Part shown: piece by piece, positions 2,289 to 32,000 of the stretch
Layout of the letters: each line of letters starts with the position of its first letter
How positions within the stretch are numbered: position 1 is the stretch's first letter
From: Promethearchaeota archaeon
GTDB taxonomy: Archaea > Asgardarchaeota > Lokiarchaeia > Sigyniarchaeales > SOKP01
Direction: 5' to 3'
Length of the DNA stretch: 32,000 bases
Assembly (NCBI GenBank): GCA_030606485.1
Contig: JAUWGH010000002.1
Span: 457,667-489,666 of the forward strand
Position numbers and translations under genes: made by a program
Notes under the pieces: generated by a model
Told to the model about the DNA's origin: nothing
Databases searched by the model: none
What the model saw: the letters and a program-made list of their open reading frames with translations, nothing else

Positions 2289-5200
2289 CTAATAATTATA
2301 AGAGCCTTGATTTTCAGGATAAATAAACTCGAATTTATTAGTGAGTGATTTATGATTAAGCCATTTTTTTATGTTTTTATCCCAGAGATGACAATCCAAT
2401 GGATTCGGATGTTTGAATTTATCAAATAAATTATTAACAAAAAGATCTCCTTTAACTAAATCAAAAAATAAAAGATAATGTTCTATTTTAAAATAATTGA
2501 ATAATTGAGTAATAATTTTCTTAAAATGATTGAAAGCGGAATCTGGTAAATAAAATTTCAAAAATAATCCATTTTCAAATTTAATCATTTTATCTTCTTC
2601 TTTAAAATAATATTCCCCCTCTATTTCATAAATGAATCCATAATTAAGGAAATTAAAAATCTTAATAATTATTTCGATTTGTTCGCGTGTCAAATCTGGA
2701 ACAATTGCATAAAATTTAAATTTAAGACCCGTATTTTCTCTAAGTTTTATTTGGGGAAAAATTAATTTTTTATTAATCAAATCTTTAATGTTATTTAATC
2801 TGGATTTATGTCTTAATTTTATCATATCCAAAAAATTTTGACCATTTAAATCTATGATATTTTGAAAATCTTGGTCGAATTTTCCTTTAATATTTTTTTC
2901 ATCTCTTTCAGAAACATTAAAAACTTTACAATCTATAGAAGGATCAAAATTTTTATCAAATAATATTTTTTGAACAAATATTTCAAAAGTTTGGTATCCA
3001 AAATAAAAGCCATCAGGGCTAATATTAAAATTAAAATTCAAAATTGGAATGATTTTTTTAACTGAAAATGATAAATATTCATCAATTTCTCTTTTACTTT
3101 TTAAAACCCAGTTCAAATATGAGAAATTAGGATTTTTGGAAGGAAATATATATTTAAAAAGATAAGAATTTGCACTTTCCAATGAACAAGTGTATTTTAT
3201 GCTCTTGAATCCTAATGGAAATAGCATCTTCCATTCAATTTCATTAGGAATACTTGGTTTTATGTATAAGTAAAAATTTTCTAAACCGAATTTTTGATAC
3301 GAAGGAATAAGTTTAATATTTTCAATATTTTTTGAATGTTTAATAATGTTTGAAAGATCATCACTTTTTACAAGTTTTTCTTCAAGATTATTGTGTAAAT
3401 CTTCAATTTCTTGAGAGATTTCTAAATTTAATGTTATTTCTTTTTTTAATTTTAGATTTTTTGAATAAGTTTCAAAAGAAATTTTTTTAACCAAATCAGT
3501 GTTAAAATTAGTGAGTTCTATACTCTCTTCCTTATGATATGAAGATATTTTGCGATCTTTAATAAGAGAGATACTAAATTTTGATAATTCATCAAAAAAA
3601 TCTTTACTATAAAAGAAATCATTATTTTCAACATCAAAGAAATTTTCTAAGCTGAAAATTGAAATTATGTATGAATCAATAAATTGTTTAAAGAGAATGA
3701 GATCATGATTAAATAATTTGTAAATTAGACCCAATAAATTTATTTTTTCATTGTCATTTAACTCAATACAATATAAATATAGAAAAGTGTATTTTTCCCC
3801 GGAAATTAGGTCAATGCTTCTATTTATGACTACTCTTGGAAAAATATCCTTAAGAGAATTAATCTTTTTTTCTGTTGTTACAGAATCCTTTATTAATAAA
3901 GTATAAAAAATTGGGCAGATTTTTCTGGCAGAAATGGAAGTAATTAAAAATGGAACTGCTCCTGGAGGGTCAGATTGAACAGTTTGAGTTAATCTCGCAT
4001 CAATATCTTGAAAAGTAATTTTTTTTAATCTATACTCCTTTAGGATTTTTTGGATTTTTTGAAATTTTGTAGTATAAATATTTTCTGCTAATTCTTTTTT
4101 TGTTAAAATGGCTTCAATCACTTTTAAATTAAATATTTTCAGATTCTCTGATGTTTTAAGTAATTGTAAAAAGTTTTCATATTCACTCTTCTCATGCAGA
4201 AAATTAGAATTGTTCATAAAATACACTGAAAATAAGTTAAATAAATTCTTCTTGAACTGAGAGTAATTATATTCAATATTTTCATCAAACTTTGGACCGA
4301 TTCCGTTTTGTTCAATGAAATCAAATAGCATAATTTCATTTTTTAGTTCTGGGTGAGTTTTTAGAATTTTTTCTGTGAGATCTATTAATTTTAAAAAGAA
4401 AGAAATTTGTTCCTTAATATAAAAAAATCCGAAATTTTTATTTGAATCGATTAATGTGAGGAATTTTCGTTTTAATTCCGGGTCTTCGTAAAAAATATTC
4501 AAAATCTTTTTTAAATCCTTAATAATATTTTTTTGAGTTAATAAATAACTAAATACATCACTTTTCACTTTCTGTAATTGCTTCCATTTTTCCTCAAAAC
4601 TAAAACCAGTTGTTGCAAACCATCTAATCCTATTGAGGAGTATAATATCAAATAGATCCATAACCTTTTCTTCTTTAGAAGTGTATTTTAAAGAAGGAGA
4701 AAATATTAAATGTTCGTTAAAATCCTTATCTCCTCTCAGTAATAACTTTTTATTCAAAATATTTTTTTTAAAGTAATTTAGGTTTAGGAAATTTTCATGG
4801 AAAACAAATTTTAACAAAAAAAATTTCTTGATAATTCCATAATTAATTAAGGTTTTAAAAAATTTTTTTAAATCATCAATATATTTCATAGGGATTACAA
4901 AAATTCCTGTAACTTCAACCCCAAACTTTGATTCTTGAGTTCTATTTACCCAATAAAATGGTAAATGTTGTAGAATTTTTTGTACCTTATAATTTCCAAG
5001 TTGAGGGTTAAAAAATATATAACAATAAACCATATTACAAAAATAATACTGCCAATTAATTTGATAATTTGGGGAAATCACATTTTGAGGTAAAAAAGTC
5101 TTAAAATACCGATTAAATTTCTTTGGAGTAAAAGAGGTATTAATTTTTTGCTCTAATTTTAATTTTTTAAACATATTTTCAAAATCCGCTCTTCTCGTAT

Positions 5201-29257: not shown

Positions 29258-31180
29258 ATGACATTAAAAATTAAAAATGAATGGTTCATTGATGATAAAG
29301 GACGATCAGTGTTATTAAGAGGGGTTAATTTAGGAGGGAGCTCAAAAGTTCCAGTTAAACCTAATGGTGCGACTCATATTAAGACTGATTTTAATAATCA
29401 TAGAGATGTTTCTTTTGTAGGGCGTCCGTTCCCAATAAATGAAGCCGCTGAACATTATAAGCGCTTAAAATATTGGGGTTTTAATTGTTTAAGATTTATT
29501 ATAACTTGGGAAGCCATAGAGCATGAAGGTCCAAAACAATATGATAATGGATATTTAGACTATATAGAAGAAATATTAAAAATTGCTGAGAGTTATGGAT
29601 TTTTTGTATTTATTGACCCCCATCAAGATGTTTGGAGCAGAATGTCGGGAGGGGATGGCGCTCCCGGTTGGATTTTTGAAAAAGTTGGGTTAGATTTCAC
29701 TAAATTTGATGCGGCGGAAGCAGCATTTGTTATGCAATATAGATATGACCCTAAAGATCCGAAAAAATATCCTTCAATGTATTGGGTAAATAATGCACTT
29801 AGATTTGCCAACGGACATATGTGGACATTATTTTTTGGGGGTAGAGATTTTGCGCCGTCCTGTAAAATCGATGGAATTAATGTTCAGGATTATTTACAGA
29901 ATCATTATTTTGAAGCAATTAAGCAAGTAGCCCAAAGAGTTAAAGATAATCAGAATGTTATCGGATTTGATACATTAAACGAACCGGAACAAGGCTGGAT
30001 TGAAAAAAGTGTGGATGGGAGTTCTGAGGATTATTCTCAAGAATTAGGATACAAATTCACTCCAATTGATGCGATGCTGACAGCTTCAGGATTTTCTAGG
30101 GCTATTGGATATAATGAAATTAAGCGATTCGGCATAAAGGAAACGAGGAAAGATGAATTAAATCCTGAAAAAATTTCAGTGTGGCTTGAAGGTTATGAGG
30201 ATCTATGGAGAAAAGAAGGAATATGGGGATTAGATGATAATGGAGGCCCAATTATTCTAAAAAATGATTATTTTATAAGAGTGAAAGGGAAAAAAATTGA
30301 TTTTTATCGAGATTATTTATCCCCATTTATAACAAAATATACTGAAGCCATTCGAAGTGTAATCCCTGATTCAATAATTTTTTTTGAGGGGCCATCCGAA
30401 AGAATGATGAAAGAAGATAAGTTTAACTTTATTGTTCCGAAAAATGCAGTAAATGCTGCGCACTGGTATGATGTAGCTACTTTAGGTAAAAAACAAGCAA
30501 TGTTAAAGGGAAATTTTGATAGAAGAACAGGAAAAATCGTTGTTGGGAAAAAAAATATTCAAAAAATGTTTATCAGTCAATTAAAAACTATTAAAGATGT
30601 TGCTAAATCTATACAGGGAGGTATTCCAACTTTAATAGGAGAATTTGGATTACCTTATGACCTTAATAAAAAAGAAGCTTATGGGAAATATAAAACAGAA
30701 CCAGAAACAGCATGGGATTCACACATAAATGCTCTCACGATGTATTATAACGCATTAGATGCAAATTTATTACATTCTTTTCAGTGGAATTACACGGCAG
30801 ATAATAATAACGTGTGGGGAGACTTATGGAACTTGGAGGATTTATCAATCTTTAGCAAGGATCAACAGATCGATCCAGCTGATATAAATAGCGGAGGAAG
30901 GGCAATTAATGGTTTCTGTCGTCCACATTTCATTCGTTGTGCTGATATTCCGTTAAAAATGGAGTTTGACATTGAAGAAGGAACCTTTTCTTTTGATTTT
31001 GATGGGAATCCGTCAATTAATGCGCCTTCAATTCTTTATATTCCCAAAATCCAGTATCCAAAAGGTTTTGACATAATTATTTCTGAGGGAGAAATTGAAA
31101 AAAGAGAGGACGAGCAATTAGTATACATAAAATCCAAAACAGAGGGAATTCATACAATTAAAATTGTAAAAAAAGCCTAA
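29258..31180 (+). CDS. GH5 glycoside hydrolase, endoglycoceramidase/steryl-beta-glucosidase-like
   Basis: GRSVLLRGVNLGG, TWEAIEH, DPHQDVWSR...GGDGAPGW, acid/base TLNEP, nucleophile IGEFG, WNY...GDLWNLEDLSIFS, C-terminal beta domain. Confidence 0.9.
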   Translation: MTLKIKNEWFIDDKGRSVLLRGVNLGGSSKVPVKPNGATHIKTDFNNHRDVSFVGRPFPINEAAEHYKRLKYWGFNCLRFIITWEAIEHEGPKQYDNGYLDYIEEILKIAESYGFFVFIDPHQDVWSRMSGGDGAPGWIFEKVGLDFTKFDAAEAAFVMQYRYDPKDPKKYPSMYWVNNALRFANGHMWTLFFGGRDFAPSCKIDGINVQDYLQNHYFEAIKQVAQRVKDNQNVIGFDTLNEPEQGWIEKSVDGSSEDYSQELGYKFTPIDAMLTASGFSRAIGYNEIKRFGIKETRKDELNPEKISVWLEGYEDLWRKEGIWGLDDNGGPIILKNDYFIRVKGKKIDFYRDYLSPFITKYTEAIRSVIPDSIIFFEGPSERMMKEDKFNFIVPKNAVNAAHWYDVATLGKKQAMLKGNFDRRTGKIVVGKKNIQKMFISQLKTIKDVAKSIQGGIPTLIGEFGLPYDLNKKEAYGKYKTEPETAWDSHINALTMYYNALDANLLHSFQWNYTADNNNVWGDLWNLEDLSIFSKDQQIDPADINSGGRAINGFCRPHFIRCADIPLKMEFDIEEGTFSFDFDGNPSINAPSILYIPKIQYPKGFDIIISEGEIEKREDEQLVYIKSKTEGIHTIKIVKKA

Positions 31181-31204
31181 ATTGATAAATTCTTTTTATT
31201 TTTT

Positions 31205-31942
31205 CTACTTCCCCCTACGCCGTGTTCTTCTTAAATATTCTCTAATGTCTTCTATTAACATTTCTTCATTATAATCGGGCCAATAATCGTCGCGAAATCT
31301 AAACTCTGCGTATGAAGCATCCCACAATAAAAATCCCGAAATCCTTGCTCCATCTTCCATTCCTGTTCTTATAATATAATCGACTTCAGGAAAATCTCGA
31401 GTATAAAGATGATTCTTAATAACTTCTCGATTAATATCTCCTGCTTTAACACCATTTTTAATAATTTCTTTCACAGCATCTACGATTTCTTCTTGTCCAT
31501 CATACATTATACATAAATTGATAAAGTTTTGATCGTTTTCTTTTGTAAATTCAATTAATTCATTAATTTTTGCCCTAACATCCGCCGGTAATAGATGCAC
31601 TCTTCCTATTACATTAAAATTAACTTTTTCTTCTTTAACTGTTGCTTCCTTTATCACTGCATCGACTGCGTCTAATATTATGCGAAAAATGTATTTAATC
31701 TCTTCTTCGCTTCTTTTTTTTAAATTCTCAAGCGATAAGGCGTAGATACTTAAATAATGAACCCCAGCTTCAAAAAAGTCAAATAATCTCTTTTTTAAAT
31801 TTTGATAGCCAATAAGATGGCCAACATTTGCACCAAACAGATTTTTGGCAGCCCAACGGCGGTTAACGTTTAAAAGCGGTAATCTCTTCTAATTTCCGTC
31901 CAATATCAAACCAACATGTTTGGGTAATTTATTTTCTGATAT
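31205..31942 (-). CDS. uppS: Cis-prenyltransferase (UppS-type polyprenyl diphosphate synthase), interrupted by a 30-nt insert; intron-containing gene or pseudogene
   Basis: One frame reads (I)SENKLPKHVGLILDGN[*KRLPLLNVN]RRWAAKN...YALSLENLKKRSEEEI...IIRTGMEDGARISGFLLWDASYAEF. Removing 30 nt gives a 235-aa protein. The ORF track's 31657 start is internal. No canonical start in frame; ATA 31940-31942 used as the 5' limit. Confidence 0.85.
31864..31893 (-). other. Candidate bulge-helix-bulge intron in uppS mRNA (30 nt)
   Basis: Insert AUUAGAAGAGAUUACCGCUUUUAAACGUUA contains an in-frame UAG. Fold: outer UGG/CCG, central ACGG/ACGU, bulges AA^A and UA^A, inner UUAGAAG/CUUUUAA. The predicted cuts give GAC GGA AAC CGC CGU UGG (DGNRRW). 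Confidence 0.6.
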
Positions 31943-32000
31943 ATCTTTTTGTTATTCCAATATGATGTGAATATTTAAGATATTTTTTCAATTACTCCGA

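What the first reader, a model, noticed from the sequence alone, without database searches (positions are those of the whole stretch)
31864..31893. Candidate bulge-helix-bulge (tRNA-type) intron inside the catalytic motif of uppS
Seen: on the minus strand uppS reads ...ATA TTG GAC GGA AAT TAG AAG AGA TTA CCG CTT TTA AAC GTT AAC CGC CGT TGG..., a 30-nt in-frame insert with a stop codon splitting the conserved DGNRRW motif; the rest of the frame is intact to 31205. Folded by hand, the RNA gives a 7-bp inner stem (UUAGAAG/CUUUUAA, 9-nt loop), two 3-nt bulges (AAA, UAA) on opposite strands, a 4-nt central helix ACGG/ACGU (3 Watson-Crick pairs plus one G.A mismatch) and an outer stem UGG/CCG extended by a long G.U-rich helix. 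Established: the archaeal splicing endonuclease EndA cuts BHB motifs after the 2nd nt of each bulge and RtcB ligates; the classic protein-gene example is cbf5 in Crenarchaeota. Applying that rule removes exactly 31893-31864 and rebuilds GAC GGA AAC CGC CGT TGG = DGNRRW. Inference: an mRNA intron in a lipid-carrier synthesis gene of a probable Asgard archaeon. I know of no described uppS intron, and it hints at overlooked BHB introns in apparent pseudogenes of this lineage. Caveats: a competing register (central GACG/CGUU) would remove 32 nt and shift the frame, and the gene lacks a canonical start.
Basis: partly seen in the sequence, partly recalled or inferred. Interest (0 to 1): 0.92.

Follow-up and report, generated by a model that had tools for sequence, protein, structure and literature searches.

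The report
Spliced micro-intron inside archaeal uppS gene
A 30-base insert with a stop codon in the catalytic motif of a lipid-carrier synthase gene of a Lokiarchaeon (Asgard archaeon) is very probably a tRNA-type intron cut out of the mRNA, because 23 related species keep it in their only copy of this gene.

Summary
On the minus strand, 30 nt (31893-31864) with an in-frame TAG split the DGNRRW motif of a PF01255 (UppS) gene.

The same 30-nt insert sits at the same site in 23 other species-level Lokiarchaeia genomes of two genera. In all seven genomes tested it lies in the only uppS gene. Removing exactly these 30 nt gives intact 241/245-aa ORFs under strong purifying selection (median dN/dS 0.08).

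The bulge-helix-bulge fold is conserved, with compensatory changes in the outer, central and inner helices. Every genome tested has two EndA paralogs, and G000 has RtcB. No RNA data were available, so splicing is inferred, not seen.

Two caveats apply to this assembly:
- The window's last ~660 nt end a contig and are one half of a reciprocal chimera with the genome's second uppS. This is most likely a mis-join with a rarer co-occurring relative.
- Codon 3 is TAA here but GAA in three metagenomes.

The scan had already flagged similar introns elsewhere in this genome. I confirmed dnaG (widespread in the family), moxR and GH38. The find is a new member of a known kind (cbf5-type pre-mRNA intron) and, as far as the searched literature goes, undescribed for Asgard mRNAs.

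The parts
31894..31960 (-). uppS exon 1. TTG start at 31960-31958. In this assembly only, a TAA at codon 3 (31954-31952). Ends ...GAC GGA A.
   Evidence: the start codon varies TTG/GTG/ATG among relatives; at 31954 the contigs of X1, X3 and X4 all read C on the + strand, which gives GAA (Glu).
31864..31893 (-). 30-nt bulge-helix-bulge intron with an in-frame TAG at 31891-31889
   Evidence: The same 30 nt are found in 23 other genomes. Removal restores DGNRRW and a full ORF in all of them.
31205..31863 (-). uppS exon 2 (AC CGC CGT TGG ... to TAG 31207-31205), PF01255
31900..31902 (-). Outer (exon-exon) helix, 5' strand UGG. It pairs with 31862-31860 (CCG).
   Evidence: 100% paired in 22 distinct sequences, with G.C to U.A covariation at the middle pair. 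RNAalifold predicts this helix independently.
31896..31899 (-). Central helix, exon strand ACGG. It pairs with intron 31869-31866 (ACGU).
   Evidence: the two middle pairs are always Watson-Crick (C.G to U.A covariation, and G.C). The end pairs are weak (A.U in 9/22; G.C in 4/22, otherwise G.A).
31893..31895 (-). 5' bulge AA|A. The cut falls after 31894. The third base is A, U, G or C in relatives.
31870..31892 (-). Intron hairpin: stem 31892-31884 with 31878-31870, loop 31883-31879. This copy has an A.G mismatch at 31885/31877.
   Evidence: 92% of cells paired, with compensatory changes at 4 of 9 pairs. The loop varies freely.
31863..31865 (-). 3' bulge UA|A. The cut falls after 31864.
31311..31336 (.). 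26-nt stretch identical in both uppS types. It is the crossover point of the reciprocal chimera between contig ends C1 and C7.
   Evidence: Upstream of it (31337-32000) the sequence is 86% identical to genus-g2 genes and 67% to g1. Downstream (31205-31310 and beyond) it is 98-100% identical to g1 genome G003.
29258..31180 (+). Convergent neighbour, a GH5 glycoside hydrolase. It is native to the host genus.
   Evidence: PF00150, PF18564; 94.7% aa identity to the gene next to the intron-less uppS in G003.

Best explanation
The 30 nt at 31893-31864 are a tRNA-type (bulge-helix-bulge) intron in the pre-mRNA of the cis-prenyltransferase gene uppS.

Proposed mechanism:
- Fold: a 3-bp exon-exon helix and a 7-9-bp intron hairpin flank a symmetric 7x7 internal loop. 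Each side of the loop is 4 helix positions followed by a 3-nt bulge.
- Cleavage: the heterotetramer-type splicing endonuclease (two EndA paralogs) cuts after the second base of each bulge.
- Ligation: RtcB joins ...GACGGAA to ACCGCC..., which restores DGNRRW. The 30-mer is released, probably as a circle.

Shown here: the DNA insert, its conservation, selection on the gene, covariation of the helices, and presence of the enzymes. Inferred: the cleavage and the ligation themselves.

The intron belongs to a clade of Lokiarchaeia (genera g2 and g11 of one family). It was probably gained once and then lost precisely several times.

The copy in this window is not a good representative of the host genome. 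Its body (31337-32000) comes from a g2-like organism and is joined to the host's own uppS tail at a 26-nt identical stretch. I judge this about 70-75% likely to be an assembly mis-join with a rarer co-occurring population, and otherwise a real recombinant.
For: 1. Same insert elsewhere: exactly 30 nt at the same site in 13 g2 and 10 g11 genomes.
2. Sole copy: PF01255 hits only the interrupted gene in G024, G113, G126, G066 (a one-contig 3.34-Mb genome), G068 and G083. The intron-less G017 also has a single gene.
3. Function retained: all 23 give intact 241/245-aa ORFs once the 30 nt are removed. Pairwise dN/dS has median 0.08 and maximum 0.23 at median dS 1.3, against 0.14 for intron-less genes.
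4. Not read as protein: the inserts carry TAG, TAA and/or TGA at varying places. G061 has no stop at all, yet keeps the pairing through a G.U.
5. Structure: 86.9% of cells are paired, against 28-55% for slid controls. Six pairs show compensatory changes, including exon-intron C.G to U.A (GAC/GAU Asp codon with intron G/A) and exon-exon G.C to U.A. RNAalifold independently returns the outer helix and the hairpin around a 7x7 loop.
6. Register: pair 12-50 holds in 22/22 sequences. The rival 32-nt register's pair 12-47 holds in 9/22. Only the 30-nt register keeps the frame.
7. Intron-less alleles at the exact site in close relatives.
8. Enzymes: two EndA paralogs in G000 and in five intron-bearing genomes, and one RtcB in G000. 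Asgard EndA is the broad-specificity (alpha-beta)2 type (PMC5829648).
9. The same cutting rule restores Walker A in moxR, GAIFGQ^TEGLL in dnaG and HWDRE^WY in GH38 of this genome. The dnaG intron is present or absent across the family, with a covarying central helix.
10. The insert is present in DNA contigs of three metagenome studies.
Against: - No spliced transcript, circular intron or cleavage assay exists.
- The central helix is relaxed. Only 2 of its 4 pairs are always Watson-Crick, and the end pairs are mostly A.G/A.A and G.A.
- The single-sequence fold is no better than shuffles, and the MFE is a different pairing.
- Much of the covariation separates the two genera, so the number of independent events is small.
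- In this assembly the gene also has a TAA at codon 3 and a second uppS exists.
Confidence: 0.85

Rival explanations
1. The insert is a disabling insertion and the gene is a pseudogene. An intact paralog does the work.
For: In this assembly the copy has a TAG in the insert and a TAA at codon 3, and an uninterrupted uppS lies on C7.
Against: - The two copies are reciprocal chimeras at contig ends.
- Metagenome contigs link the g2-type body to a g2-type tail and the host tail to a host body, at 3-10 fold different depth.
- The TAA reads GAA in all three runs that cover it.
- In 7 of 7 tested relatives the interrupted gene is the only one.
- All 23 are otherwise intact, with dN/dS 0.08.
Confidence: 0.03
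2. The 30 nt stay in the mRNA and are skipped or read through by the ribosome. This would be either a T4 gene 60-like hop from a take-off codon followed by a stop and a hairpin, or stop-codon suppression giving a 10-residue insertion.
For: In this copy AAU-UAG-hairpin is followed 27 nt later by AAC, a possible Asn-to-Asn hop. In some relatives GGA ... GGA would fit as well.
Against: - Candidate take-off and landing codons do not match across relatives. The codon after GGA is AAU, AUU, AGU or ACU. The three bases before AAC are GUU, GGU, GGA, GUA, AUA, AAA, AUU or GAA.
- Up to two stops of different kinds occur in one insert.
- Covariation preserves exon-intron and exon-exon pairs, which a hop does not need.
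- A 10-residue insertion would sit inside the DGNRRW motif.
Confidence: 0.04
3. The insert is removed at RNA level, but not by EndA/RtcB. Some other nuclease or an unknown ribozyme-like activity would recognise the hairpin.
For: The central helix departs from the canonical 4 Watson-Crick pairs, and no biochemical data exist.
Against: - The geometry (3-nt bulges, 4 helix positions, flanking helices) is exactly that of EndA substrates.
- The EndA cutting rule gives the right product here and in three other genes of the genome.
- 30 nt is far too small for a group I or group II intron.
- Relaxed motifs are typical of pre-mRNA introns cut by hetero-oligomeric EndA (PMC2738675).
Confidence: 0.07
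4. The insert is an assembly or sequencing artefact.
For: It lies about 110 nt from a contig end, in a chimeric stretch.
Against: It is present without indels in contigs of three separate metagenome studies and in 23 independently assembled genomes.
Confidence: 0.01

Closest known systems
cbf5 pre-mRNA intron of Crenarchaeota (Watanabe et al. 2002; Yokobori et al. 2009, PMC2738675)
   Same: [quoted passage not shown]
- Often a relaxed motif.
- Linked to a hetero-oligomeric splicing endonuclease.
- Patchy distribution with gains and losses.
   Different: - A different gene (cis-prenyltransferase) and a different lineage (Lokiarchaeia, Asgard).
- The intron lies inside the catalytic motif.
- It has a fixed length of 30 nt.
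- Splicing of cbf5 is shown experimentally. Here it is inferred.
Archaeal tRNA/rRNA BHB introns, including the intron-rich tRNA genes of Asgard archaea (PMC11291895; bioRxiv 10.64898/2026.10.13.758758)
   Same: - Same motif geometry and cutting rule.
- Same enzymes.
- Similar size (about 25-50 nt).
- A-rich bulges.
   Different: - The host RNA is an mRNA, so the exon halves of the helices are built from codons and covary through synonymous changes.
- Those papers report no mRNA introns.
HAC1/XBP1 unconventional mRNA splicing in eukaryotes (own knowledge)
   Same: Non-spliceosomal removal of a short intron from an mRNA, by endonuclease cuts in paired stem-loops followed by ligation. The ligase is RtcB in metazoa.
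   Different: The endonuclease is IRE1, not an EndA/TSEN homolog, and the event is a stress-regulated switch. No regulation is known here.
Translational bypass in phage T4 gene 60 (own knowledge)
   Same: A stop codon right after a conserved Gly/Asn codon, followed by a hairpin and a short untranslated gap.
   Different: The matching take-off and landing codons are not conserved among relatives. This is a look-alike only.

Membership tests
Archaeal BHB (EndA-dependent) intron | [quoted passage not shown] | tested here: met
   A symmetric 7x7 loop lies between two conserved helices. The middle two helix pairs are always Watson-Crick and one covaries. The end pairs are weak, so the motif is relaxed.
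Archaeal BHB (EndA-dependent) intron | Flanking helices: exon-exon outside, intron hairpin inside | tested here: met
   The outer helix is 100% paired and the inner stem 92%. Compensatory changes occur in 1 outer and 4 inner pairs. Slid controls give 28-55% paired.
Archaeal BHB (EndA-dependent) intron | Cutting after the 2nd base of each bulge yields a functional product | tested here: met
   DGNRRW is restored in all 24 sequences, and the 23 relatives give full ORFs. In this copy the spliced frame is open from the junction to the stop, but the TAA at codon 3 remains. The rival register shifts the frame.
Archaeal BHB (EndA-dependent) intron | Host encodes the splicing endonuclease and the RtcB ligase | tested here: met
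   PF01974 hits twice in G000, G024, G113, G066, G068 and G125. PF01139 hits once in G000.
Archaeal BHB (EndA-dependent) intron | Spliced RNA and excised (circular) intron observed; cleavage by EndA | not testable with these tools
   No RNA run holds the sequence.
UppS / cis-prenyltransferase (PF01255) | Family profile match, and the DGNRRW motif near the N-terminus | tested here: met
   189 bits over model positions 5-219. The motif is complete only after the 30 nt are removed.
Pseudogene | Relaxed selection, further lesions, functional copy elsewhere | tested here: not met
   For the lineage: dN/dS 0.08, no other lesions in 23 genes, sole copy in 7/7 genomes. For this copy alone the test is inconclusive, because of the TAA at codon 3 and the chimeric contig end.
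Programmed translational bypass (gene 60 type) | Matched take-off and landing codons conserved across homologs | tested here: not met
   The codons on both sides of the gap vary without matching.

The most novel reading that the evidence does not exclude
Lokiarchaeia routinely splice messenger RNAs. A population of ~30-45-nt EndA/RtcB introns sits in conserved single-copy protein genes, and these introns are gained and precisely lost over time. Examples are uppS, dnaG (including a second intron site in one genome), moxR and GH38. Further candidates flagged by the scan are ychF and a B12 mutase subunit. The four introns read here lie 19-51 codons into their open frames. Gene callers turn such genes into truncated ORFs, pseudogenes or proteins with false insertions. 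That would make protein-gene splicing a regular feature of the closest archaeal relatives of eukaryotes.
Probability: 0.6. Interest if true: 0.85.

Novelty: new member of a known kind. Interest (0 to 1): 0.74.

Why it matters
- BHB introns in archaeal protein genes are known essentially from one gene (cbf5) in Crenarchaeota. Here one sits in the sole cis-prenyltransferase gene, and others in dnaG and further genes, of Asgard archaea. Eight full-text searches of the held library found no report of this.
- It affects annotation. These genes are called truncated or broken, or, as in G061, given a false 10-residue insertion. Completeness and metabolic reconstructions of Lokiarchaeia inherit that error.
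- It gives a directly testable system for how a tRNA-splicing enzyme is used on mRNAs in the lineage nearest to eukaryotes.
- It also gives a system for intron gain and precise loss: some intron-less alleles carry the exact spliced junction AAC-AGA.

Tried and rejected
- Single-sequence folding gave z about 0, and the MFE is not the BHB. It is uninformative for a 30-nt AT-rich hairpin.
- A genome-wide scan of G000 for BHB-shaped inserts whose removal fuses open frames gave 3036 hits, equal to the frame-shifted decoys (2807-3337). Stricter structure filters and lower ORF thresholds did not help. Gene boundaries swamp the few true introns, and the true ones lie too near 5' ends for my thresholds, so there is no genome-wide count.
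- A regex search for intron-like hairpins gave 1210 chance hits.
- A covariance model of the intron (R1) found only the uppS intron in each genome. The weak hits at G000 C12:158599 (E = 0.11) and G041 C285 (E = 2.5e-5, antisense inside an intact ORF) are chance. The intron is therefore not a multi-copy element.
- Rfam found nothing at 31000-32000.
- No RNA holder was listed for the stretch.
- The contigs laid do not bridge 31311-31336 in the assembled configuration among the records shown. 60 records were not shown, so this is not proof.
- Searching our earlier findings by sequence found nothing.
- Literature searches found no description of mRNA BHB introns in Asgard archaea. The library does not include most subscription journals.

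Full report
**What is in the window.**
- On the minus strand a PF01255 (UppS, cis-prenyltransferase) gene runs from a TTG at 31960-31958 to a TAG at 31207-31205.
- Thirty bases, 31893-31864, interrupt the DGNRRW motif and carry an in-frame TAG. Removing them rebuilds GAC GGA AAC CGC CGT TGG.
- On its own the fold is not remarkable (z = +0.19 and -0.55 against shuffles), and the minimum-energy fold pairs differently.
- Base 32000 is the last base of contig C1.
- The genome (3.75 Mb, 13 contigs, 29% G+C) holds a second, uninterrupted uppS near the end of contig C7.

**Relatives.**
- A search of 135 species-level genomes of the same family found uppS genes whose frame is cut just before NRRW in 13 genomes of genus g2 and 9 of genus g11.
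- A tenth g11 genome (G061) has the insert without any stop codon.
- In all of them the insert is exactly 30 nt at the same site.
- A covariance model of the element finds one copy per genome. It hits 23 of 126 sampled genomes of this family and none of 24 genomes of six other families of the class. One weaker hit was an antisense chance match.
- Record titles identify the relatives as Promethearchaeota/Promethearchaeia MAGs, that is Lokiarchaeia. The metagenomes that hold the sequence are cold-seep, marine-sediment and subsurface samples.

**The interrupted gene is functional.**
- In seven of seven intron-bearing genomes tested with the Pfam model, the interrupted gene is the only cis-prenyltransferase gene. 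One of them is the single-contig 3.34-Mb genome G066.
- After removal of exactly the 30 nt, all 23 non-own genes give intact ORFs of 241 (g2) or 245 (g11) residues with a start codon.
- Pairwise dN/dS among them has a median of 0.08 and a maximum of 0.23 at a median dS of 1.3. This is at least as constrained as the intron-less genes, whose median is 0.14.
- The inserts themselves are not constrained as coding sequence. They carry TAG, TAA and TGA in different places, sometimes two in one insert.

**Structure.**
- I counted the BHB structure on a gapless 66-column alignment of 23 sequences.
- 86.9% of cells pair, against 28-55% when the 3' partners are slid by 1-3 columns. Six pairs show changes on both sides.
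- The outer exon-exon helix pairs in every sequence. Its middle pair switches G.C to U.A, involving the third base of a Leu/Val codon and the first base of an Arg codon (CGN to AGA).
- In the central helix, exon C (GAC, Asp) with intron G switches to exon U (GAU) with intron A. The neighbouring G.C is invariant.
- The two end pairs of the central helix are weak: A.U in 9 of 22, and G.C in 4 of 22 with G.A otherwise. The motif is therefore relaxed.
- The 9-position intron hairpin is 92% paired, with compensatory changes at four pairs and a freely varying loop.
- RNAalifold, which knows nothing of BHB motifs, returns the outer helix and the hairpin and leaves a symmetric 7x7 loop. That loop is exactly four helix positions plus a 3-nt bulge on each strand.
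Its distinguishing pair holds in only 9 of 22 sequences, against 22 of 22 for the 30-nt register, and it would shift the frame.
- Much of the covariation separates the two genera, so the count of independent events is small. G082, a g11 genome with the g2-type states at both covarying pairs, adds one more.

**Machinery and precedent.**
- G000 and five intron-bearing genomes each encode two EndA-domain paralogs of about 200 residues. G000 encodes one RtcB.
- Asgard archaea are reported to have the (alpha-beta)2 endonuclease with the L1 insert that confers broad substrate range (PMC5829648).
- The known pre-mRNA introns in cbf5 'frequently contain the relaxed cleavage motif' and are tied to hetero-oligomeric endonucleases (PMC2738675).

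**The same rule works elsewhere in this genome.**
- I followed notes from earlier readers of the scan and read three further genes directly.
- moxR: removing 31 nt gives GEPG^TGKT (helix CUGG/CCAG).
- dnaG: removing 32 nt gives GAIFGQ^TEGLL (helix GGGC/GCCU).
- GH38: removing 30 nt gives HWDRE^WY (helix CGUG/CACG).
- These removals open ORFs of 290, 410 and 930 residues.
- For dnaG I looked at 60 family genomes. Judged by frame length, a large share carry an insert at this site, and the 30 loci read show the junctions directly. Length and sequence vary, the central helix covaries (GGGC/GCCU, GGAC/GUCU, GGCC/GGCU), the rest have a clean GQ-TEG junction, and one genome has an intron six codons upstream instead.
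- My own genome-wide screens could not count such introns, because gene boundaries produce as many hits as decoys.

**History.**
- On a maximum-likelihood tree of 73 UppS proteins, the g2 intron-bearers form one clade (support 100/97).
- The g11 intron-bearers are scattered among intron-less genes, and well-supported branches force at least four changes.
- The introns of the two genera are clearly homologous. One gain followed by several losses is therefore the simplest reading.
- Five intron-less g11 genes carry AAC-AGA/AGG, the junction that splicing would produce, which looks like precise loss.

**The copy in this window.**
- The C1 gene body (start codon to 31337) is 86% identical to g2 intron-bearers and 67% to the host genus.
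- Its last 106 nt and the downstream flank, including the GH5 gene, are 98-100% identical to the same-genus genome G003.
- The C7 copy is the mirror image: body 97.8% to G003, tail and 1.27-kb flank 86-90% to g2.
- The switch lies in 26 identical bases (31311-31336), and both contigs end within 0.7-1.3 kb of it.
- In four metagenomes the long, deep contigs carry GH5 joined to a host-type uppS (X1 13.5 kb at depth 16; X2 14.8 kb at depth 67).
- Contigs matching the g2-type body are 3-10 times shallower. Loose ends at 31293/31302 run on into a g2-type tail.
- I conclude that the last ~660 nt of the window most likely belong to a rarer g2-like Lokiarchaeon and were mis-joined. A real recombinant is not excluded.
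- The TAA at codon 3 reads GAA in every run that covers it, so it is private to this assembly or a contig-end error.

**Rivals.**
- A dead gene is excluded for the lineage by sole-copy status, intact frames and dN/dS.
- A ribosomal hop or readthrough is unlikely. Possible take-off and landing codons do not match across relatives, stops vary in kind and number, and the covarying pairs are RNA-structural.
- An artefact is excluded by independent assemblies and metagenome contigs.
- An unknown RNA-level mechanism other than EndA cannot be excluded without biochemistry. The geometry, and the success of the EndA rule in four genes, argue against it.

**Verdict.**
Splicing itself remains to be shown.
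- It is a new member of a known kind, the cbf5-type pre-mRNA BHB intron. It is the first I can find for uppS and for Asgard mRNAs in the literature searched.
- It is part of a wider set of mRNA micro-introns in this family.

Noticed in passing
G000 C2:142590-142621 (L130:291-322); relatives L133-L162: dnaG carries a 32-nt BHB intron between GAIFGQ and TEGLL. By frame length a large share of the 60 family genomes sampled have an insert there. In the 30 loci read, it is 29-45 nt long and the helix covaries (GGGC/GCCU, GGAC/GUCU, GGCC/GGCU), while the others have a clean junction. G052 (L147) instead has an insert six codons upstream.
   Followed up: partly
G000 C1:76174-76204 (outside the window, same contig): A 31-nt canonical BHB insert (helix CUGG/CCAG, bulges AA|A and AG|C, 11-bp hairpin) splits the Walker A motif of a MoxR-type ATPase. 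Removal gives GEPG^TGKT and a 290-aa ORF.
   Followed up: partly
G000 C7:23173-23202: A 30-nt canonical BHB insert (helix CGUG/CACG, 8-bp hairpin) lies between HWDRE and WY near the start of a 930-aa GH38-like gene.
   Followed up: partly
window 31311-31336 and G000 C7:104989-106265: The contig ends C1 and C7 are reciprocal chimeras of a host-type and a g2-type uppS locus, crossed over in 26 identical bases. This is probably a mis-join of two co-occurring Lokiarchaeia, which would account for part of the 4.65% contamination estimate.
   Followed up: yes
L089 (G061 C29), relatives: In G061 the intron has TGG instead of TAG and no stop codon. Gene callers will report a UppS with a false 10-residue insertion (DGTWKRFPLLDINRRW).
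   Followed up: partly
L074, L075, L076, L079, L090 (genus g11): Intron-less uppS genes that read AAC-AGA/AGG at the site, the junction that splicing produces. Most intron-less genes read AAT-CGN there. This looks like precise intron loss.
   Followed up: partly
G125 C121:211-867 and C173:18189-18845 (L036, L070): One MAG holds two intron-bearing uppS copies (85-89% identical to the window's protein), both near contig ends. This may be strain mixture rather than duplication.
   Followed up: no
uppS, dnaG, moxR, GH38 of G000: All four mRNA introns read here lie 19-51 codons into the open frame and share an AA|N 5' bulge. A 5' bias would be worth testing once a census exists.
   Followed up: no
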